Below the pieces are notes generated by a model. That model had not been told where the DNA came from. It saw only the letters and a list, made by a program, of their open reading frames with translations, and did no database searches. The position numbers and the translations under genes were made by a program. From IMG/VR virus record IMGVR_UViG_3300029107_000019: a stretch of 21,791 nucleotides of DNA. The stretch is one strand, 5' to 3'. Source of the DNA: a virus. Taxonomy: Duplodnaviria; Heunggongvirae; Uroviricota; Caudoviricetes. Shown piece after piece: positions 3,560-18,543 of this stretch (position 1 is its first letter; each line of letters begins with the position of its first letter).

Positions 3560-4657
3560 ATGAAAAAATTAACAGTGGCAATTTCTGCTGTAGCTGCATC
3601 AGTACTGATGGCGATGTCTGCTCAGGCAGCTGAAATTTATAATAAAGACAGTAACAAGCTGGATCTGTACGGAAAAGTTAATGCCAAGCACTACTTTTCC
3701 TCTAACGATGCAGATGATGGTGATACTACTTATGTTCGTCTGGGCTTCAAAGGCGAAACCCAAATCAACGATCAGCTGACTGGTTTCGGTCAGTGGGAAT
3801 ATGAATTCAAAGGCAACCGCGCTGAATCTCAAGGTTCCTCCAAAGACAAAACCCGTCTTGCATTTGCAGGCCTGAAATTCGGTGACTACGGCTCAATCGA
3901 TTACGGCCGTAACTACGGTGTAGCATACGACATCGGTGCGTGGACTGACGTTCTGCCAGAATTCGGTGGCGATACCTGGACCCAAACAGATGTGTTCATG
4001 ACTGGTCGCACCACTGGTGTTGCAACCTATCGTAACAACGACTTCTTTGGTCTGGTTGATGGTCTGAACTTTGCTGCTCAGTACCAAGGCAAAAACGATC
4101 GTAGCGATTTCGATAACTACACCGAAGGTAACGGTGATGGCTTCGGTTTCTCTGCTACCTATGAATACGAAGGGTTCGGTATCGGTGCAACTTATGCGAA
4201 ATCTGATCGTACCGACACTCAAGTTAATGCAGGGAAAGTTCTTCCTGAAGTATTTGCTTCCGGTAAAAATGCAGAAGTTTGGGCCGCAGGTCTGAAATAT
4301 GATGCTAACAACATTTACCTGGCCACTACCTATTCTGAAACCCAGAATATGACTGTATTTGCTGATCACTTCGTTGCTAATAAAGCTCAAAACTTCGAAG
4401 CTGTTGCACAATATCAGTTCGATTTCGGTCTGCGTCCGTCCGTTGCTTACCTGCAATCTAAAGGTAAGGATCTTGGAGTATGGGGCGATCAGGACTTAGT
4501 CAAATATGTTGATGTAGGTGCAACCTATTACTTCAACAAAAATATGTCTACTTTCGTTGATTACAAAATCAACCTGCTTGACAAAAATGACTTCACTAAA
4601 GCACTCGGTGTAAGCACTGATGACATCGTTGCTGTAGGTCTGGTTTACCAGTTCTAA
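3560..4657 (+). CDS. Phage-encoded general outer-membrane porin (OmpC/OmpF/NmpC/Lc family), lysogenic-conversion gene
   Basis: 365 aa; signal peptide ending [10 protein letters not shown]; mature N-terminus ([17 protein letters not shown]), internal motifs ([40 protein letters not shown]) and C-terminal ...VGLVYQF typical of enterobacterial trimeric porins; AAGGG RBS before ATG; sits between Q and S in opposite orientation as nmpC does in DLP12. Confidence 0.9.
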
Positions 4658-4846: not shown

Positions 4847-5230
4847 TTAATTAGAGTTATTAACAACGATATCCATCTCTAACCGGATATCTAATGCCAT
4901 TAACATCCCTTCAATTATGCCCTCAGCCTTCTGTAACCTTTTCCCGATATAACCATCAGAGCAGCAATGCTTACCTGCCAGTGACATGAATGTCATACCG
5001 ACTACATAATAATCTACTAATAAATCGTGCAAATCGCTGTTGTTCTTTTTCAGACGGGCCATGCACCCGCAAATGATCATCGCGTCATCGTCACAACATT
5101 GCGGGCGAGATTTTACTTTTGAAGGAATTAATCCCTTAAAACCGGCGGCAATGGACGACCAGGTCACATCTTCATGATTATTAGCCGCCCACGCTCCCCA
5201 ACGCTCAAGAACCATCTGAATATCACGCAT
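4847..5230 (-). CDS. Q: Late-gene antiterminator Q (phage 82/DLP12 QuuD type)
   Basis: 127 aa from the ATG at 5230 (ORF-track start at 5245 is TTG); matches my memory of DLP12 QuuD ([21 protein letters not shown]...); Cys-rich zinc-binding region ([12 protein letters not shown]). Confidence 0.85.
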
Positions 5231-5315
5231 CAACTTACTCCACAAAACTCAGACCAGAACGCCAATTACAAGCAAAAATCAACAAAACAGTATTAGTTGA
5301 TTGTTATCTCTGACT

Positions 5316-7710: not shown

Positions 7711-8885
<1,175 letters not shown>

Positions 8886-12780: not shown

Positions 12781-13320
12781 TCATATTGCCCCCAGCATGG
12801 TGGTTACCATCGCCATCAATGGACCAGCCAGATCCGGGTCCACTCGAAACATCGACACAATGCCTTCACTCATCTCCTTCAGTTTCTGGTGGCGTGGTGC
12901 GTTGAGAATGACCGCCTGCTTTGCCTCACAGAGTTCCTTTTCCATTTCAGCCAGCCGAGCCATGAAGCTATCCTGCTCAACCAGGTGGCCGCGATATTCC
13001 AGCGGTAGTACCGCCAGAATTGCCGGGGTCAGTTCACGCACGTTATTTCGGTATTTTTCAGAATCGAATTTGTTATCGAGGAAGCGGAACAGCTTCTGGC
13101 GTGCACGGCTGACATCATCAGGGAAATCGATAGTGCCGCCGCCCTGCTCCCGATACTCATTCACAATGAGTGTGGCAACGACATCCTGATTATCTTCAGC
13201 CGACCAGGCGCGGACGGCATCACGGATTTTTTCGTGGCCTGGCACCTGTTTTGTTTGAGAACGATTTATCACCGCAGTCGGGCTAAATCCGCTAGTCTGT
13301 TGGTATGTAAGTGGTTGCAT
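12781..13320 (-). CDS. Hypothetical early regulatory protein in the cII position (possibly YdaT-like)
   Basis: 179 aa; AAGGAG RBS; located between cro-like and O; not similar to lambda CII; YdaT-like assignment is from memory and weak. Confidence 0.4.
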   Translation of the reverse strand: MQPLTYQQTSGFSPTAVINRSQTKQVPGHEKIRDAVRAWSAEDNQDVVATLIVNEYREQGGGTIDFPDDVSRARQKLFRFLDNKFDSEKYRNNVRELTPAILAVLPLEYRGHLVEQDSFMARLAEMEKELCEAKQAVILNAPRHQKLKEMSEGIVSMFRVDPDLAGPLMAMVTTMLGAI

Positions 13321-13389
13321 AATTGACTCCTTTAGTTTGAATTGACTGTTAAGTTGATTGCTTATTGTTAAAGAGCGTGAAATGGAAAT

Positions 13390-13620
13390 TTAAGCTGCGT
13401 TCTTTTCGGTGTGTGGAAACAACTTCGGAAGATCCGGGCGAATCTGGTATGCCTTCACTACTCCACCAGTAGCCGTAACAATGCTGCCGACATGTTCAGG
13501 GGATACCTTTGCTTTGTTGTGAAGCCACTTATAGACGGCCTGCTGTGAAACTTCGCAGGCAGCGCCCAGTTTCTTTTGTGAACCAACGATATTGATCGCT
13601 GTTTTGATAGCTGGATTCAT
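13390..13620 (-). CDS. cro: Cro-like HTH regulator (YdaS/Cro family)
   Basis: 76 aa; HTH (KKLGAACEVSQQAVYKWLHN); GGAGG RBS; divergent from the CI-like repressor across an operator region. Confidence 0.75.
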   Translation of the reverse strand: MNPAIKTAINIVGSQKKLGAACEVSQQAVYKWLHNKAKVSPEHVGSIVTATGGVVKAYQIRPDLPKLFPHTEKNAA

Positions 13621-13724
13621 AACAACCTCCGTGGTTAATTTGAATCAAGATTAAAACTATGGTTGTTTTTAGTCAACAACCATTTTCGTTTGATGGAATA
13701 AAACCTTGGTTGTACATTTGGACT
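13621..13724. promoter_or_regulatory. OR-like operator with divergent pR/pRM-type promoters
   Basis: Palindrome ATGGTTGTT-N7-AACAACCAT (13659-13683) and further GGTTGT/ACAACC half-sites; the same half-site recurs near the pL-like promoter; cI has no SD, consistent with a leaderless pRM transcript as in lambda. Confidence 0.6.
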
Positions 13725-14414
13725 ATGAAAACAACACTCTCAGAAAGACTTAAAGAAGCCAGATTAGCGCGAGGCCTTACACAAAAGGCGCTTGGGGATT
13801 TGGTCGGGGTTAGCCAAGCTGCTATTCAGAAAATCGAAACAGGGAAAGCTAACCAAACAACTAAAATCGTGGAGATCGCGAACGCTTTGGGTGTGCGCGC
13901 AGAATGGTTATCTTCTGGCGTTGGAAATATGTCAGACAGTACAGTGCAACCAATACAATCAACTGTCAGCCATTCCAAATACTTTAAGATTGACGTTCTT
14001 GATATAGAAGTGAGTGCCGGGCCGGGAGTCATCAACCGTGAATTTGTAGAAGTTCTACGCTCGGTTGAGTACTCGTTTGACGATGCTCGTCACATGTTCG
14101 ATGGCAGGAAGGCGGAAAATATCCGCATCATTAACGTGCGTGGTGACAGCATGTCAGGAACGATCGAACCAGGTGATCTGCTGTTCGTTGATATCACGGT
14201 TAAATCTTTCGACGGTGATGGTATCTATGCGTTTCTGTACGACGACACAGCCCATGTAAAGCGCCTGCAAATGATGAAAGATAAGCTACTGGTTATCTCT
14301 GATAACAAGAGCTACTCACCGTGGGACCCGATCGAGAAAGACGAGATGAACCGGGTGTTCATTTTCGGGAAGGTTATTGGCAGTATGCCGCAGACGTATA
14401 GGAAACACGGATAA
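13725..14414 (+). CDS. cI: CI-type prophage repressor (HTH_XRE N-domain plus LexA-like S24 peptidase C-domain)
   Basis: HTH LTQKALGDLVGVSQAAIQKIETGK; Ala-Gly autocleavage site (EVSAGPG); catalytic Ser (GDSMSGT) and Lys (HVKRLQ). The upstream ATG at 13659 lies in the operator region and is rejected. Confidence 0.85.
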   Translation: MKTTLSERLKEARLARGLTQKALGDLVGVSQAAIQKIETGKANQTTKIVEIANALGVRAEWLSSGVGNMSDSTVQPIQSTVSHSKYFKIDVLDIEVSAGPGVINREFVEVLRSVEYSFDDARHMFDGRKAENIRIINVRGDSMSGTIEPGDLLFVDITVKSFDGDGIYAFLYDDTAHVKRLQMMKDKLLVISDNKSYSPWDPIEKDEMNRVFIFGKVIGSMPQTYRKHG

Positions 14415-14493
14415 TCAGCTGCGTGCTGATGAGGCTTTTGGGTAATGCGCTGAAAGAATTCTTTATAAAAATAACATTACGGGAAAGGCAAAA

Positions 14494-14763
14494 ATGAGTG
14501 ATAAAAAACTTATAAAAAAATCAAATAACTGTGTAGATGCATATGCTGATGCATTTGGATATTCATCTTTTGGGGAAGATGACGATCGCTTAGGCTCCAT
14601 ATCTTTCTTTCAGCATGTTACAGAATGGGGCGCTGATGGTAGTAATGACACTGAAAACGTAAAGTACAACATTGCAACAATTCGCATGACGGAAGATTTA
14701 ATGCTTAAACTCGCTGACTTTATTCGCGATCAGCATGATAGAGCTAAAACCAATAAGTCATAA
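14494..14763 (+). CDS. Hypothetical acidic protein, 89 aa (first gene of the rex-position operon)
   Basis: ATG with AAAGG RBS about 80 nt downstream of cI, same strand; Asp-rich; AT-rich relative to neighbours; no family recognised. Confidence 0.55.
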   Translation: MSDKKLIKKSNNCVDAYADAFGYSSFGEDDDRLGSISFFQHVTEWGADGSNDTENVKYNIATIRMTEDLMLKLADFIRDQHDRAKTNKS

Positions 14764-14771
14764 TATTAACA

Positions 14772-15212
14772 ATGAAACACGGTTATTACGAAGCTCCAAA
14801 CCTAACTGAAAAGCTTGAACAAGCGGCAAGATCATCATCTTTGCACACTGCAGCATTTTCTCAATCAGCTGGTATGTCTGGCGGTAATGTACCTATGCTA
14901 CAATCAAGTGGTAGCGGTGGCTCTGGGAGTAATAATGTGCTTGAATCGAAAGTTGCAAAGCTTGAGTCTGATGTGTCCTATATCCGACGTGACGTTGATG
15001 AGCTTAAGACAGATGTCAAATCTATCGACAGAAACATGATCGCTGTTCTGGAGCGACTCGATTCAATAAAAGATTCACTAGCCAAAAAACCCTCCATCGA
15101 TGCTGTCGATAGAAAGATTTCAGACGCAAAGCTTGCGGTATTGCTTGGTGTTCCAGCAATCATCGCTGCAGGAACAGGTCTTTATAAGCTATCAATGTAC
15201 TTTTTTCTTTAG
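14772..15212 (+). CDS. Hypothetical tail-anchored membrane protein, 146 aa (Ser/Gly-rich N-region, central coiled coil, C-terminal TM helix)
   Basis: Begins 8 nt after the upstream stop; heptad-like KLESDVSYIRRDVDELKTDVKSIDRNMIAVLERLDSIKDSL; C-terminal hydrophobic LAVLLGVPAIIAAGTGLYKL; followed by a strong terminator. Confidence 0.55.
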   Translation: MKHGYYEAPNLTEKLEQAARSSSLHTAAFSQSAGMSGGNVPMLQSSGSGGSGSNNVLESKVAKLESDVSYIRRDVDELKTDVKSIDRNMIAVLERLDSIKDSLAKKPSIDAVDRKISDAKLAVLLGVPAIIAAGTGLYKLSMYFFL

Positions 15213-15287
15213 TGCTTAAGAAACTGCTCGCCACCTTGCATTACGCAAAGCGATTTTTCATTCCCTATTACCCTTTCTTATCCATAT

Positions 15288-15318
15288 AAACCCGGCCCCA
15301 GTGCCGGGTTTTCTTTTG
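15288..15318 (+). terminator. Intrinsic terminator closing the cI / rex-position operon
   Basis: aaacccggc-cccagt-gccgggttt hairpin followed by TTTTCTTTT. Confidence 0.8.
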
Positions 15319-15439
15319 CCTCCCCTCATCACACAAACCGTTCAAAAAACCACCACGACCTCGCTTCAGTTATCGCTATGCGATGCAAGTCACAAAATAA
15401 ATCCATCTTAAATACAACCAGTTATATCTAAAACAACCA

Positions 15440-15490
15440 ATAAAACAACTTTTGTTGTTGACGATAAAACAACTATGGTTTTAAATGAAT
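15440..15490 (+). promoter_or_regulatory. pL-like early promoter with overlapping OL-like operator
   Basis: TTGACG (15458-15463), 17-bp spacer, TTAAAT (15481-15486); palindrome AACAAC-TTTT-GTTGTT (15444-15459) carrying the same half-sites as OR. Confidence 0.5.
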
Positions 15491-15559
15491 TCATCGCAAC
15501 AACACAACGATACGGCAATCACCTGATTCACCGTTGCGATGACCGCTTAGATCCGCAGC

Positions 15560-15970
15560 TTGAATTTCAGCAGGCTCCGGGGAGTGCGAGGGGTGAAGCG
15601 GACGCGTGAACGTCGGTGTGACCAGCTGAAATCAACTCAACACTTCATACCTCAGTCGCTTCAACGAGGCGACTTAGTTATGACAACCGGCGGCCATCCA
15701 CCGCCTGAATACGCGCAGAAGTCTCTATATGTTCAGCAGCCCAGCTTACGGGCAGGAGTTTTTATGGTTCATCAACATTACGGAACGCAGACCGTTAATC
15801 GAGGTGCGGTCATGCCAGGAATGCTGGTCAAACACAAAGATGGTACCTGGACTGCATCAGCTAATTTACGCGGACGGCTTTATCTGCATCGCGGCATCGA
15901 GCGCACTTATACCCGTGACTTGCTCGTGGAAGTTTTTCTCGACGGGCGCGGCAACGGTCTGAATCACTAA
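15560..15970 (+). CDS. Hypothetical pL-proximal early protein in the N position; start uncertain (TTG 15560, or ATG 15680 giving 96 aa)
   Basis: Only ORF between the pL-like promoter and gam; the N-terminal extension encodes an Arg-rich stretch (GVKRTRERR) reminiscent of an N-type arginine-rich motif, but it lies in a highly structured GC-rich region without a clear RBS; the ATG at 15680 has a GAGG upstream. Confidence 0.4.
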   Translation: MNFSRLRGVRGVKRTRERRCDQLKSTQHFIPQSLQRGDLVMTTGGHPPPEYAQKSLYVQQPSLRAGVFMVHQHYGTQTVNRGAVMPGMLVKHKDGTWTASANLRGRLYLHRGIERTYTRDLLVEVFLDGRGNGLNH

Positions 15971-16045
15971 TCCCCTTTCCTGTTTACCTAATCAGCCTGG
16001 CATTTCGCGGGCGATATTTTCACAGCCATTTTCAGGAGTTCAGCC

Positions 16046-16342
16046 ATGAACGCTTATTACATTCAGGATCGTCTTGAGGCTCAGAGCTGGGCGCGTCACT
16101 ACCAGCAGATCGCCCATGAAGAGAAAGAGGCAGAACTGGCAGACGACATGGAAAAAGGCCTGCCCCAGCACCTGTTTGAATCGCTATGCATCGATCATTT
16201 GCAACGCCACGGGGCCAGCAAAAAAGCCATTACCCGTGCGTTTGATGACGATGTTGAGTTTCAGGAGCGCATGGCAGAACACATCCGGTACATGGTTGAA
16301 ACCATTGCTCACCACCAGGTTGATATTGATTCAGAGGTATAA
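16046..16342 (+). CDS. gam: Gam (RecBCD inhibitor), short form
   Basis: 98 aa, matching lambda Gam as I recall it ([21 protein letters not shown]...[10 protein letters not shown]); the upstream frame is closed by a stop at 15989-15991, so the long form is absent. Confidence 0.9.
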
Positions 16343-16347
16343 AACGG

Positions 16348-17133
16348 ATGAGTACAGCACTCGCAACGCTGGCTGGGAAGCTGGCTGAACGTGTCGGCAT
16401 GGATTCTGTCGACCCACAGGAACTGATCACCACTCTTCGCCAGACAGCATTTAAAGGCGATGCCAGCGATGCGCAGTTCATCGCATTGCTGATCGTCGCC
16501 AACCAATACGGCCTTAATCCGTGGACGAAAGAAATTTACGCCTTCCCTGATAAGCAGAACGGCATCGTTCCGGTGGTGGGCGTTGATGGCTGGTCCCGCA
16601 TCATCAATGAAAACCAGCAGTTTGATGGCATGGACTTTGAGCAGGACAATGAATCCTGTACATGCCGGATTTACCGCAAAGACCGTAATCATCCGATCTG
16701 CGTTACCGAGTGGATGGATGAATGCCGCCGCGAACCATTCAAAACCCGCGAAGGCAGAGAAATCACCGGACCGTGGCAGTCGCATCCCAAACGGATGTTA
16801 CGGCATAAAGCCATGATTCAGTGTGCCCGTCTGGCCTTCGGATTTGCGGGTATCTATGACAAGGATGAAGCCGAGCGCATTGTCGAAAATACCGCATACA
16901 CTGCAGAACGTCAGCCGGAACGCGACATCACTCCGGTTAACGATGAAACCATGCAGGAGATTAACACTCTGCTGATCGCCCTGGATAAAACATGGGATGA
17001 CGACTTATTGCCGCTCTGTTCCCAGATATTTCGCCGCGACATTCGCGCATCGTCAGAACTGACACAGGCCGAAGCAGTGAAAGCTCTTGGATTCCTGAAA
17101 CAGAAAGCCACTGAGCAGAAGGTGGCAGCATGA
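16348..17133 (+). CDS. bet: Bet (Red-beta single-strand annealing recombinase)
   Basis: 261 aa, essentially identical to lambda Bet as I recall it ([26 protein letters not shown]...). Confidence 0.95.
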
Positions 17134-18445: not shown

Positions 18446-18543
18446 ACATGAAAAGCAAAATCATCAGGGAGCTACAGGCTCCTTTTTTATTGTTCGCATT
18501 CACCCTCAAGCGTATTAACCAACAATTCAGGGATTAATGAAAG

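What the first reader, a model, noticed from the sequence alone, without database searches (positions are those of the whole stretch)
15476..15970. No recognisable N gene: structured 200-nt pL leader and an ORF of uncertain start carrying an Arg-rich motif
Downstream of the pL-like promoter the transcript begins with a GC-rich leader containing a perfect 10-bp inverted repeat (tcatcgcaac...gttgcgatga, 15491-15542) and a second long-range repeat (atttcagc...gctgaaat, 15564-15632). The only ORF before gam either starts at an SD-less TTG within this structure, giving an N-terminal GVKRTRERR stretch resembling an N-type arginine-rich motif, or at the ATG at 15680, giving a 96-aa protein with no similarity to N, cIII or Kil. 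The early antitermination mechanism is therefore unclear. It may be a divergent N, or an RNA-based put-like element as in HK022.
Basis: inference. Interest (0 to 1): 0.5.

Follow-up and report, generated by a model that had tools for sequence, protein, structure and literature searches.

The report
N-less phage leader before kil
This is the start of the early-left operon of a very common E. coli lambda-like prophage that has no N gene and no HK022-type put RNA: a structured non-coding leader runs into a conserved RNA hairpin and the cell-division inhibitor gene kil, so how these phages read through terminators remains open.

Summary
The ORF's last 68 codons (15764-15970) are Kil, an FtsZ inhibitor related to Rac KilR and phi80 Kil. 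The Arg-rich stretch is not part of a conserved protein: in 31 of 81 related loci that frame is broken by a stop or a frameshift before 15680, including in an isolated phage.

No N homologue, no boxB and no pL-side boxA were found. A put covariance model that recovers untrained put sites finds nothing here. The predicted transcript start is A15493.

The leader has three predicted hairpins (P1-P3). P3 is the stretch that reads as the Arg-rich codons.

Positions 15640-15712 belong to a conserved element found in many Enterobacteriaceae prophages: a hairpin with strong covariation, then an invariant 26 nt that opens a short Pro-rich upstream ORF. In most relatives this element directly follows an intrinsic terminator, which is missing here.

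Best reading, about 50% likely: a non-coding 5' UTR of an N-independent operon, with the conserved element gating kil. A new antiterminator RNA is not excluded, because a lambda-like terminator lies 3 kb downstream. The module occurs in 2295 of 5426 complete E. coli genomes.

The parts
15288..15311 (+). Intrinsic terminator ending the cI plus two-ORF transcription unit, upstream of pL
   Evidence: 9-bp stem with 6 GC pairs, followed by a T-run.
15440..15486 (+). oL operators and the pL promoter: -35 TTGACG 15458-15463, -10 TTAAAT 15481-15486, predicted start A15493
   Evidence: Direct repeats ATAAAACAAC... The same sequences occur as inverted copies at oR, 13651-13669 and 13699-13713. The promoter is homologous to the pL of UPF_BP1 and phiEt88, which drives putL. 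The start site is inferred, not measured.
15493..15511 (+). 5'-terminal leader segment AUCGCAACAACACAACGAU, shared with pL transcripts of other phages
   Evidence: Local alignments to the S9-5, HK639, Klebsiella phi6.1 and phi80 leaders; two of them score above all 200 shuffles. Heteroimmune relatives become homologous to the window exactly from 15493/15494.
15492..15541 (+). P1: 5' hairpin built on the 10-bp inverted repeat
   Evidence: Frequent polymorphisms at 15492 and 15493 are wobble-compatible. The apical part is highly variable.
15544..15588 (+). P2: hairpin with core 15557-15562/15571-15576. It is mutually exclusive with the long-range repeat 15564-15574/15622-15632
   Evidence: C15559U keeps a G.U pair. 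The single-base deletion at 15563 lies in the loop.
15593..15622 (+). P3: imperfect G-rich hairpin (GACG/CGUC with hexaloop CGUGAA). In one frame it reads GTG-KRTRERRCD, the 'arginine-rich motif'
   Evidence: G15598A turns a G.U pair into A-U; the frame is broken in 31 of 81 loci; no protein relatives outside the family.
15554..15568 (+). Motif CGCAGCTTGAATTTC, shared with the pR transcript just after cro (13385-13399, minus strand)
   Evidence: 14 of 15 bases match. Function unknown. It is polymorphic in relatives.
15630..15642 (+). Motif AATCAACTCAACA, shared with the pR transcript (13347-13359, minus strand); part of a C-rich, G-poor tract
   Evidence: A 5-nt duplication occurs here in 4 variants.
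15640..15712 (+). Conserved element (CE): CAUACCU, then a hairpin at 15654-15662/15666-15674, then the invariant AUGACAACCGGCGGCCAUCCACCGCC (ATG 15680; second hairpin 15689-15693/15701-15705)
   Evidence: Alignment of 18 loci from many genera. In the hairpin, 6 of 9 pairs change on both sides and 96.9% of cells are paired, against 35-54% paired over the whole structure in slid controls. The covariance model finds one copy per locus.
15680..15763 (+). Upstream ORF (MTTGGHPPP...). It stops before the next gene in relatives but here runs in frame into kil, which gives the 96-aa reading
   Evidence: open in all 81 loci. NCBIfam aligns the Kil profile from codon 29, which is ATG 15764.
15764..15970 (+). 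kil: 68-aa FtsZ-inhibitor homologue, with an AGGAG Shine-Dalgarno 5 nt upstream
   Evidence: phrog_294 E=1e-37. 40% identity to phi80 Kil. 36% identity to Rac KilR, E=9e-13. PGAP calls exactly this CDS in a genome that is collinear here.
13365..13377 (-). Consensus boxA CGCUCUUUAACAA on the pR transcript, 12 nt after the cro stop codon
   Evidence: The only zero-mismatch match in the window. Nothing in the pL leader matches with 3 or fewer mismatches (sequence).
18466..18484 (+). First strong intrinsic terminator of the pL operon, before the TraR-like gene, xis and int
   Evidence: 8-bp stem plus a T-run. The surrounding 181 nt are 97.8% identical to lambda 30597-30777.

Best explanation
The region is the promoter-proximal part of the early-left (pL) operon of a mosaic lambdoid prophage that carries neither an N gene, nor nut sites at pL, nor a put RNA.

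Transcription most likely starts at A15493. The RNA is a non-coding 5' UTR with three hairpins (P1-P3). It runs without any intervening terminator into a widely conserved RNA element (CE) and then into kil (15764-15970), gam, bet and exo. The CE is a covarying hairpin that holds the Shine-Dalgarno sequence of a short Pro-rich upstream ORF.

The 'arginine-rich motif' is what the G/C-rich P3 hairpin reads as in one frame. It is not a conserved protein.

Proposed mechanism (inferred). In most relatives an intrinsic terminator directly precedes the CE, and those relatives carry N or put. That terminator is absent here, so kil, gam, bet and exo can be transcribed without a phage antiterminator. The CE hairpin and upstream ORF set how much of the toxic Kil is made, by translational gating and possibly by Rho access to the C-rich tracts. 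On the pR side the consensus boxA after cro could recruit host NusB/NusE to resist Rho.

Shown: the identity of the parts, the absence of N and put, the CE structure, and the missing terminator. Inferred: the start site, the gating role of the CE, and N-independence.
For: Kil identity.

The Arg-rich frame is not conserved. A stop at 15653 occurs in 27 loci and a 5-nt insertion in 4 loci, out of 81. Phage IdasGreatGrand carries the stop.

No N-like family was found among the pL-operon ORFs, and the Arg-rich peptide has no relatives elsewhere.

The put model is negative here although it is sensitive. Rfam is negative.

The CE shows strong covariation, and its G.U pairs place the structure on the pL-transcript strand. 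In 15 of the 17 other loci aligned, the CE follows a GC hairpin plus T-run, which the window lacks.

No strong intrinsic terminator lies between pL and 18466, or between cro and Q.

A consensus boxA follows cro. BoxA works without N in other contexts (PMC7665894).

Phages with this module are viable: Perceval produces virions, and about 15 phage genome records (several listed with E. coli C or K-12 as host) carry it.
Against: A lambda-identical terminator at 18466-18484 sits before xis and int. In lambda itself, to my recollection, a terminator in this region is crossed with N's help, so some read-through device may still be needed.

The stretch just after the pL start is where relatives carry put, nutL or another covarying RNA.

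All six frequent polymorphisms in the predicted stems preserve pairing, and indels fall in loops and junctions. This hints that P1-P3 are under structural selection. A passive UTR does not predict that.

The origin of 15512-15643 is unknown.

Relatives with the Perceval type of immunity region have no boxA after cro, so the boxA cannot be the general solution.
Confidence: 0.5

Rival explanations
1. The leader RNA (P1-P3, perhaps with the CE) is a new cis-acting processive antiterminator. It would be a functional analogue of HK022 put with unrelated sequence, modifying RNA polymerase as it leaves pL.
For: It occupies the position put holds behind the same promoter type in UPF_BP1 and phiEt88. 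A different covarying RNA sits at that position in six other species. The phages are viable without N or put yet keep a lambda-type terminator before xis and int. P1 is non-random, and the frequent stem polymorphisms are all pair-preserving.
Against: There are no double-sided compensatory changes and no homologue outside E. coli. The whole-leader fold has z = -1.9 only. There is no counterpart on the pR transcript in Perceval-type phages, and only two short, polymorphic motifs in the window. The family has lost the terminator that in most relatives directly precedes the CE; the put-bearing relatives keep it, and an efficient antiterminator would not require its loss.
Confidence: 0.22
2. The leader is a Rho-dependent attenuator or insulator. 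Its C-rich, G-poor tracts (15493-15532 and 15613-15672) load Rho and keep the toxic kil silent unless transcription from pL is strong or the upstream ORF is translated.
For: Base composition. The phi80 record annotates a Rho-dependent tL1B about 140 nt downstream of its CE. The upstream ORF carries a PPP motif, which could couple translation to termination.
Against: The C-rich tracts are short (30-40 nt) and flanked by stable hairpins. There is no sequence similarity to the Rac kilR leader or to KilS. No direct evidence.
Confidence: 0.18
3. A short Arg-rich peptide (20-29 aa) or an N-terminally extended Kil is translated from GTG 15593. It acts like N, or is the decaying 5' remnant of a deleted N gene, with P2 or P3 as its RNA target.
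For: A GGGGAG Shine-Dalgarno lies 8 nt before the GTG. The Arg-rich stretch sits at the very N-terminus, as in lambda N. One variant has ATG at this position. Four of the six common substitutions fall at third codon positions (P about 0.1).
Against: The frame ends after 20 or 29 codons in 31 of 81 loci, and the start codon or Shine-Dalgarno is mutated in some. No matching hairpin exists on the pR transcript. No homologous N protein was found in 50,697 phage records or in the word-seeded search of 5.8 billion proteins. By established knowledge, the arginine-rich motif of N alone does not antiterminate.
Confidence: 0.05

Closest known systems
Kil / KilR FtsZ inhibitors of phi80 and the Rac prophage (PHROG 294, NCBIfam NF008465)
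   Same: The 68-aa product of 15764-15970 is 40% identical to phi80 Kil and 36% to Rac KilR. It sits early in the leftward operon, upstream of the recombination genes.
   Different: An upstream ORF is fused in frame to it here, giving a possible 96-aa form. Its leader is unrelated to the Rac kilR leader and to the KilS sRNA.
HK022 put antiterminator RNAs (putL/putR)
   Same: An N-less lambdoid phage with a structured RNA starting at or near +1 of pL. The same pL promoter type drives put in UPF_BP1 and phiEt88.
   Different: No match to a put covariance model (best window hit 9.3 bits, and not in the leader). No second copy downstream of pR. The only shared string is an ACGGCAAT octamer, and most relatives do not keep it.
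Lambda N / nut (boxA-boxB) antitermination
   Same: The position immediately downstream of pL; an N-terminal Arg-rich stretch in one frame; a consensus boxA after cro.
   Different: No conserved N ORF, no boxB-type hairpin shared by the two operons, and no boxA at pL.
The phi80/HK225/HK639 region downstream of the first leftward terminator (phi80 tL1A-tL1B interval)
   Same: Window 15640-15712 is homologous to it, with the same hairpin architecture and the same invariant 26-nt core.
   Different: In those phages the element follows cassette genes (N in phi80) and an intrinsic terminator, and its upstream ORF stops before the next gene. Here there is no terminator, and the upstream ORF runs into kil.
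Host BoxA/Nus (rrn-type) antitermination
   Same: CGCUCUUUAACAA after cro differs from my recollection of the E. coli rrn boxA (UGCUCUUUAACAA) only at the first base. N-independent BoxA action is documented for CRISPR arrays.
   Different: It is present only on the pR side and only in this immunity type. Untested.

Membership tests
Lambda-type N antiterminator protein | A conserved protein-coding gene immediately downstream of pL | tested here: not met
   The frame from TTG 15560 or GTG 15593 is cut by a stop or a frameshift in 31-33 of 81 related loci. The conserved gene is kil, from 15764.
Lambda-type N antiterminator protein | Sequence similarity to known N families | tested here: not met
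   No Pfam, PHROG or NCBIfam match for residues encoded by 15560-15763. No relatives outside the family by tblastn of 50,697 phage records or by the word-seeded 5.8-billion-protein search.
Lambda-type N antiterminator protein | N-terminal arginine-rich motif | tested here: inconclusive
   KRTRERR follows GTG 15593, but it coincides with a G/C-rich hairpin and the frame is not conserved.
Lambda-type N antiterminator protein | Matching boxA-boxB nut sites on both the pL and pR transcripts | tested here: not met
   boxA occurs only after cro. No hairpin follows it. The two transcripts share only two unstructured motifs.
HK022 put RNA | Sequence and structure match to put (invariant GAACGGC, GUCGG, GGCAAU blocks in two stem-loops) | tested here: not met
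   Model R1 scores 55-102 bits on put sites, including untrained ones, but gives no hit in the leader of the window or of its relatives L001, L002, L012, L018, L041, L075.
HK022 put RNA | A second copy downstream of pR | tested here: not met
   No put hit anywhere in the window with filters off.
HK022 put RNA | Read-through activity that depends on the beta' zinc-binding domain | not testable with these tools
   Needs reporter or in vitro assays in rpoC zinc-binding-domain mutants (properties described in PMC9378689).
Kil/KilR FtsZ inhibitor | Sequence similarity across the whole protein | tested here: met
   phrog_294 E=1.3e-37 over residues 1-68. BLASTP E=8e-15 to phi80 Kil and E=9e-13 to Rac KilR. 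NF008465 E=4e-17, though at 61.9 bits it is below the curated cut-off of 92.
Kil/KilR FtsZ inhibitor | Inhibition of FtsZ and cell division | not testable with these tools
   Requires expression experiments.
BoxA (NusB/NusE binding site) | Match to the E. coli consensus GCUCUUUAACAA on a nascent transcript | tested here: met
   13365-13377 minus strand, zero mismatches, 12 nt after the cro stop. There is none in the pL leader.
BoxA (NusB/NusE binding site) | Nus-factor-dependent suppression of Rho termination | not testable with these tools
   Needs nusB, nusE or suhB mutants, or bicyclomycin, with reporter fusions.
Conserved post-terminator element (CE) of phi80/HK225/HK639-type leftward operons | CAUACCU, a 9-bp hairpin with apical UUC-loop-GAG, then the AUGACAACCGGCGGCCAUCCACCGCC core | tested here: met
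   Window 15640-15712 scores 84.6 bits with model R2. Note that the window is a row of the alignment R2 was built from, so this score is partly circular. Covariation across the 18 loci supports the hairpin.
Conserved post-terminator element (CE) of phi80/HK225/HK639-type leftward operons | Located directly after an intrinsic terminator | tested here: not met
   The window has ...GACCAGCTGAAATCAACTCAACACTT before CATACCT, with no GC hairpin plus T-run.

The most novel reading that the evidence does not exclude
The P1-P3 leader is a previously unrecognised class of cis-acting antiterminator RNA. It would let a very common family of N-less, put-less E. coli lambdoid phages read through the lambda-type terminator before xis and int. 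The stretch just after the pL start would then be an exchangeable slot that holds put, nutL, the 'ACCACC...GGUGG' RNA seen in six other species, or this leader.
Probability: 0.2. Interest if true: 0.8.

Novelty: new variant of a known kind. Interest (0 to 1): 0.4.

Why it matters
Lambdoid early gene expression is a standard model of processive antitermination, with N/nut and HK022 put as the two known solutions. This pL-kil module has neither. It is found in 42% of complete E. coli genomes, in an active prophage (Perceval) and in about 15 phage genome records.

Showing either that these phages need no early antiterminator, or that the leader is a third kind of device, would settle how a large share of E. 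coli prophages switch on.

The conserved hairpin and upstream-ORF element ahead of kil is also an undescribed, well-supported RNA structure. It probably controls a toxic cell-division inhibitor.

For annotation: the gene is kil, 68 aa. The longer 96-139 aa calls in several phage records are probably over-extended.

Tried and rejected
- **Rfam.** Searched at E<=10 over 13200-16400, at gathering score over the whole window, and on eight related loci. Nothing was found in any pL leader.
- **put membership.** Rejected with a covariance model.
- **Divergent N.** Rejected on frame conservation and on homology searches.
- **Relic of a deleted N gene.** No donor N with this N-terminus was found, so this stays possible but unsupported.
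- **Homology of 15512-15643 to other leaders.** Only the first ~25 nt match the phi80, HK225, HK639, phiEt88, S9-5 or Klebsiella phage leaders. Nothing matched in 35 species-representative loci.
- **Similarity to the Rac kilR leader or the KilS sRNA.** None beyond a chance 9-mer.
- **The CE as a nut-type site.** There is only one copy per locus and none on the pR side.
- **RfaH ops site in the CE.** Checked by eye only: GGCGG is followed by CCAT, not TAGC.
- **The 61-nt G-rich insert as a repeated mobile element.** There is about one copy per genome.
- **Literature search for the invariant strings.** No papers found.
- **Relatives of the post-cro region.** Only six same-immunity phages, all identical, so uninformative.

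Full report
**Context.** The window is a lambdoid prophage in which the + strand corresponds to lambda's leftward direction. The parts, with window coordinates, are:
- a cI-type repressor (13659-14414, + strand; HTH plus S24 peptidase domains);
- a YdaS-type Cro (13390-13620, - strand), a YdaT-type CII-like protein and O on the - strand;
- two unknown ORFs in the rex position (14494-15212);
- a strong terminator (15288-15311);
- Gam, Bet (RecT family) and Exo (YqaJ family) from 16046;
- further left, lambda orf60a/63/61 homologues, a TraR-like gene, xis and int.

A 100% match to positions 15440-15990 lies in E. coli strain 7CC, in a prophage beside icd. Its gene calls are collinear with the window from ren/O to int. 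In the nin region the two sequences differ. The late region has a Q antiterminator (4847-5245, - strand), an nmpC-like porin and lysis genes, and there is an IS3-family insertion.

**Promoter and transcript start.** Repeats of ATAAAACAAC.. at 15440-15484 recur as inverted copies at oR. They bracket a -35 TTGACG (15458-15463) and a -10 TTAAAT (15481-15486). The same promoter type, with the same spacing, drives putL in Salmonella phage UPF_BP1, whose put aligns with HK022 putL. A related promoter in Erwinia phage phiEt88 also precedes a putL. Carrying over the HK022 transcript start that I reconstructed from the residue numbering in PMC9378689 puts +1 at A15493. This is an inference. Relatives with a different immunity region become homologous to the window exactly from 15493/15494, so the module boundary coincides with the predicted start.

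**The ORF is kil.**
- The last 68 codons (ATG 15764, AGGAG 5 nt upstream) match PHROG 294 'Kil' at E=1e-37.
- They are 40% identical to phi80 Kil and 36% to Rac KilR.
- NCBIfam's FtsZ-inhibitor profile aligns from exactly that ATG.
- PGAP calls exactly this CDS.

**The Arg-rich stretch.** I compared 80 IMG/VR loci that carry an identical Kil with the window, setting aside one locus with an unrelated upstream region and one with too little upstream sequence. That leaves 81 loci, counting the window, and 56 distinct upstream variants.
- The frame from GTG 15593 is open into kil in only 50 of the 81 loci.
- A C-to-T change at 15653 makes a TAG in 27 loci. These include the isolated phage IdasGreatGrand.
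- A 5-nt duplication at 15631 shifts the frame in 4 loci.
- Single-base indels at 15563 and 15589 break the TTG frame.
- The peptide has no Pfam, PHROG or NCBIfam match.
- It has no relatives outside this family in 50,697 phage records at E<=10, or in the word-seeded 5.8-billion-protein search.
- The codons coincide with a G/C-rich imperfect hairpin, P3 (15593-15622).

A conserved N-like protein is excluded. A 20-29 aa leader peptide is not formally excluded.

**No N and no nut at pL.** No ORF of the pL operon matches an antiterminator family. A boxA scan finds one perfect site, CGCTCTTTAACAA, at 13365-13377 on the - strand, 12 nt after cro. Nothing in the pL leader matches with 3 or fewer mismatches. 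No hairpin follows that boxA.

**Not put.** I built a covariance model from eight put sequences. It recovers an untrained putR in phiEt88 at 55 bits and five further put sites in species-representative loci at 95-102 bits. It gives nothing in the leaders of the window, Perceval, IdasGreatGrand or four other variants. The best window hit is 9.3 bits, E=0.7, and lies elsewhere. Rfam has nothing either.

**What the leader is.**
- The first ~20 nt (AUCGCAACAACACAACGAU) resemble the 5' ends of the pL transcripts of S9-5, HK639, a Klebsiella phage and phi80, and by eye that of phiEt88. Those phages carry put or nutL directly downstream.
- The next ~130 nt (15512-15643) have no homologue outside this E. 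coli family.
- The 10-bp inverted repeat (P1) is non-random: 0.6% of shuffles reach it.
- The whole-leader fold is only mildly better than shuffles (z = -1.9).
- Within the family, all six frequent polymorphisms that fall in predicted stems are one-sided and wobble-compatible. Indels fall in loops or junctions. No pair changes on both sides. This suggests structural constraint but is not proof.

**The conserved element (CE).** From 15640 the sequence joins an element found in phi80, HK225, HK639 and many Enterobacter, Citrobacter, Lelliottia, Leclercia and other loci. It consists of CAUACCU, a 9-bp hairpin, UAGUU, and then the almost invariant AUGACAACCGGCGGCCAUCCACCGCC.
- The hairpin has at least five different stems with full compensation. 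Six of nine pairs change on both sides. 96.9% of hairpin cells are paired, against 35-54% paired over the whole structure in slid controls.
- Its apical UUC-loop-GAG is conserved.
- Its G.U pairs place the structure on the pL transcript.
- The substitutions in the first nine codons of the core are all non-synonymous, and the next conserved block (GCGCAGAAGUCU) is read in different frames in different loci. Conservation is therefore at the nucleotide level, not the peptide level.
- In relatives the short ORF that opens at this AUG (MTTGGHPP[P/T/S]...) ends before the next gene. Here it happens to run in frame into kil, which produces the '96-aa' reading.
- In 15 of the 17 other loci aligned, the CE directly follows a GC hairpin plus T-run (phi80's annotated tL1A). 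That terminator ends a set of variable cassette genes, which include N only in phi80.
- The window has no such terminator.
- There is one CE per locus and none on the pR side, so it is not a nut-type pair.

**Need for antitermination.** On the + strand no strong intrinsic terminator lies between pL and 18466-18484. That terminator sits in a segment 97.8% identical to lambda 30597-30777. From memory this is lambda's tL3 region, which I could not verify here. On the - strand nothing strong lies between cro and Q. So kil, gam, bet and exo, and the rightward genes, could be expressed without a phage factor. Expression of xis and int from pL would still meet a terminator.

**Distribution.** The leader-kil module is found in 2295 of 5426 complete E. 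coli genomes and in about 15 phage genome records. One of these is Perceval, shown to be an active prophage of LF82 (PMC9928086).

**Judgement.** The most likely reading (about 0.5) is a non-coding, structured 5' UTR of an N-independent operon. The first terminator has been lost along with any N, and the CE hairpin and upstream ORF gate kil. The main rival (about 0.2) is that P1-P3 are a new antiterminator RNA. Three observations support this rival:
- the leader's position in the 'slot' just after the pL start;
- the retained downstream terminator;
- a second, covarying, undescribed RNA in that same slot in six other species.

Rho-dependent attenuation (about 0.18) and an Arg-rich leader peptide (about 0.05) remain possible.

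Noticed in passing
L098:2353-2462, L100:1700-1809, L103:2260-2369, L105:1881-1990, L116:2361-2470, L117:1728-1837: An undescribed structured RNA of about 75 nt sits directly after the pL-like promoter in prophages of six other Enterobacteriaceae species. It has an ACCACC...GGUGG closing helix, a GGC/GCC hairpin, and an inner hairpin with loop GCAUAUGAAGA whose stem covaries at 4 pairs. This is the position where put sits in other phages. It has no Rfam match and no put-model match.
   Followed up: partly
window 13347-13399 (-) and 15554-15642 (+): The pR transcript just after cro and the pL leader share two collinear motifs, CGCAGCUURAAUUUC and AAUCAACUYAACA. They are separated by 25 nt holding boxA on the pR side and by a 61-nt G-rich hairpin on the pL side. 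Chance is unlikely for the pair, but both are polymorphic in relatives and absent from Perceval's pR side. They could instead mark a CII-type promoter on the opposite strand.
   Followed up: partly
window 13365-13377 (-): A perfect consensus boxA lies 12 nt after the cro stop with no boxB-like hairpin behind it, in a phage without N. It may be a host-Nus-only antitermination site.
   Followed up: partly
L094:1755-1800 and 1985-2020; L006:3105-3153; many of L107-L129: A repeated intergenic 'cassette boundary' sequence, AAAGCATTTCTCCCGCATCAGCGGGTAACGACAGAGG, containing a CCCGC/GCGGG hairpin, precedes successive variable genes in phi80/HK225-type leftward operons.
   Followed up: no
L094:3412-3509 (-), L101:2888-2984 (-), L116:2716-2811 (-), L097:2882-2978 (-): Matches to the Rfam isrB Hfq-binding sRNA family (31-38 bits; gathering score 35) lie antisense, just downstream of kil, in several related prophages. 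There is no such match in the window.
   Followed up: no
window 15512-15519: The octamer ACGGCAAT is identical to the invariant block of put stem II. It could be a relic of a deleted put, but most relatives have C at 15519, and the put model sees nothing.
   Followed up: yes
window 7711-8885; 3560-4657: An IS3-family element (orfA/orfB, rve domain) is inserted in the nin region. An nmpC-like porin gene lies between Q (4847-5245, -) and the lysis genes, as in prophage DLP12. The window differs from strain 7CC in this part (171-nt coordinate offset; emrE/ybcK region replaced), although it is identical at the pL-kil region (15440-15990) and its gene coordinates are collinear from ren/O to int.
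   Followed up: partly
P0001, P0002: In some E. coli genomes the leader and the first codons of the upstream ORF (MTTGGH..) are fused to unrelated downstream sequence. These are deletion derivatives that have lost kil.
   Followed up: no
L087:3688-3716: The HK639 record annotates the second CE hairpin (GGCGG CCATCCA CCGCC) as a terminator. Only in HK639 is it followed by a T-run. In the other loci, including the window, it is not.
   Followed up: partly
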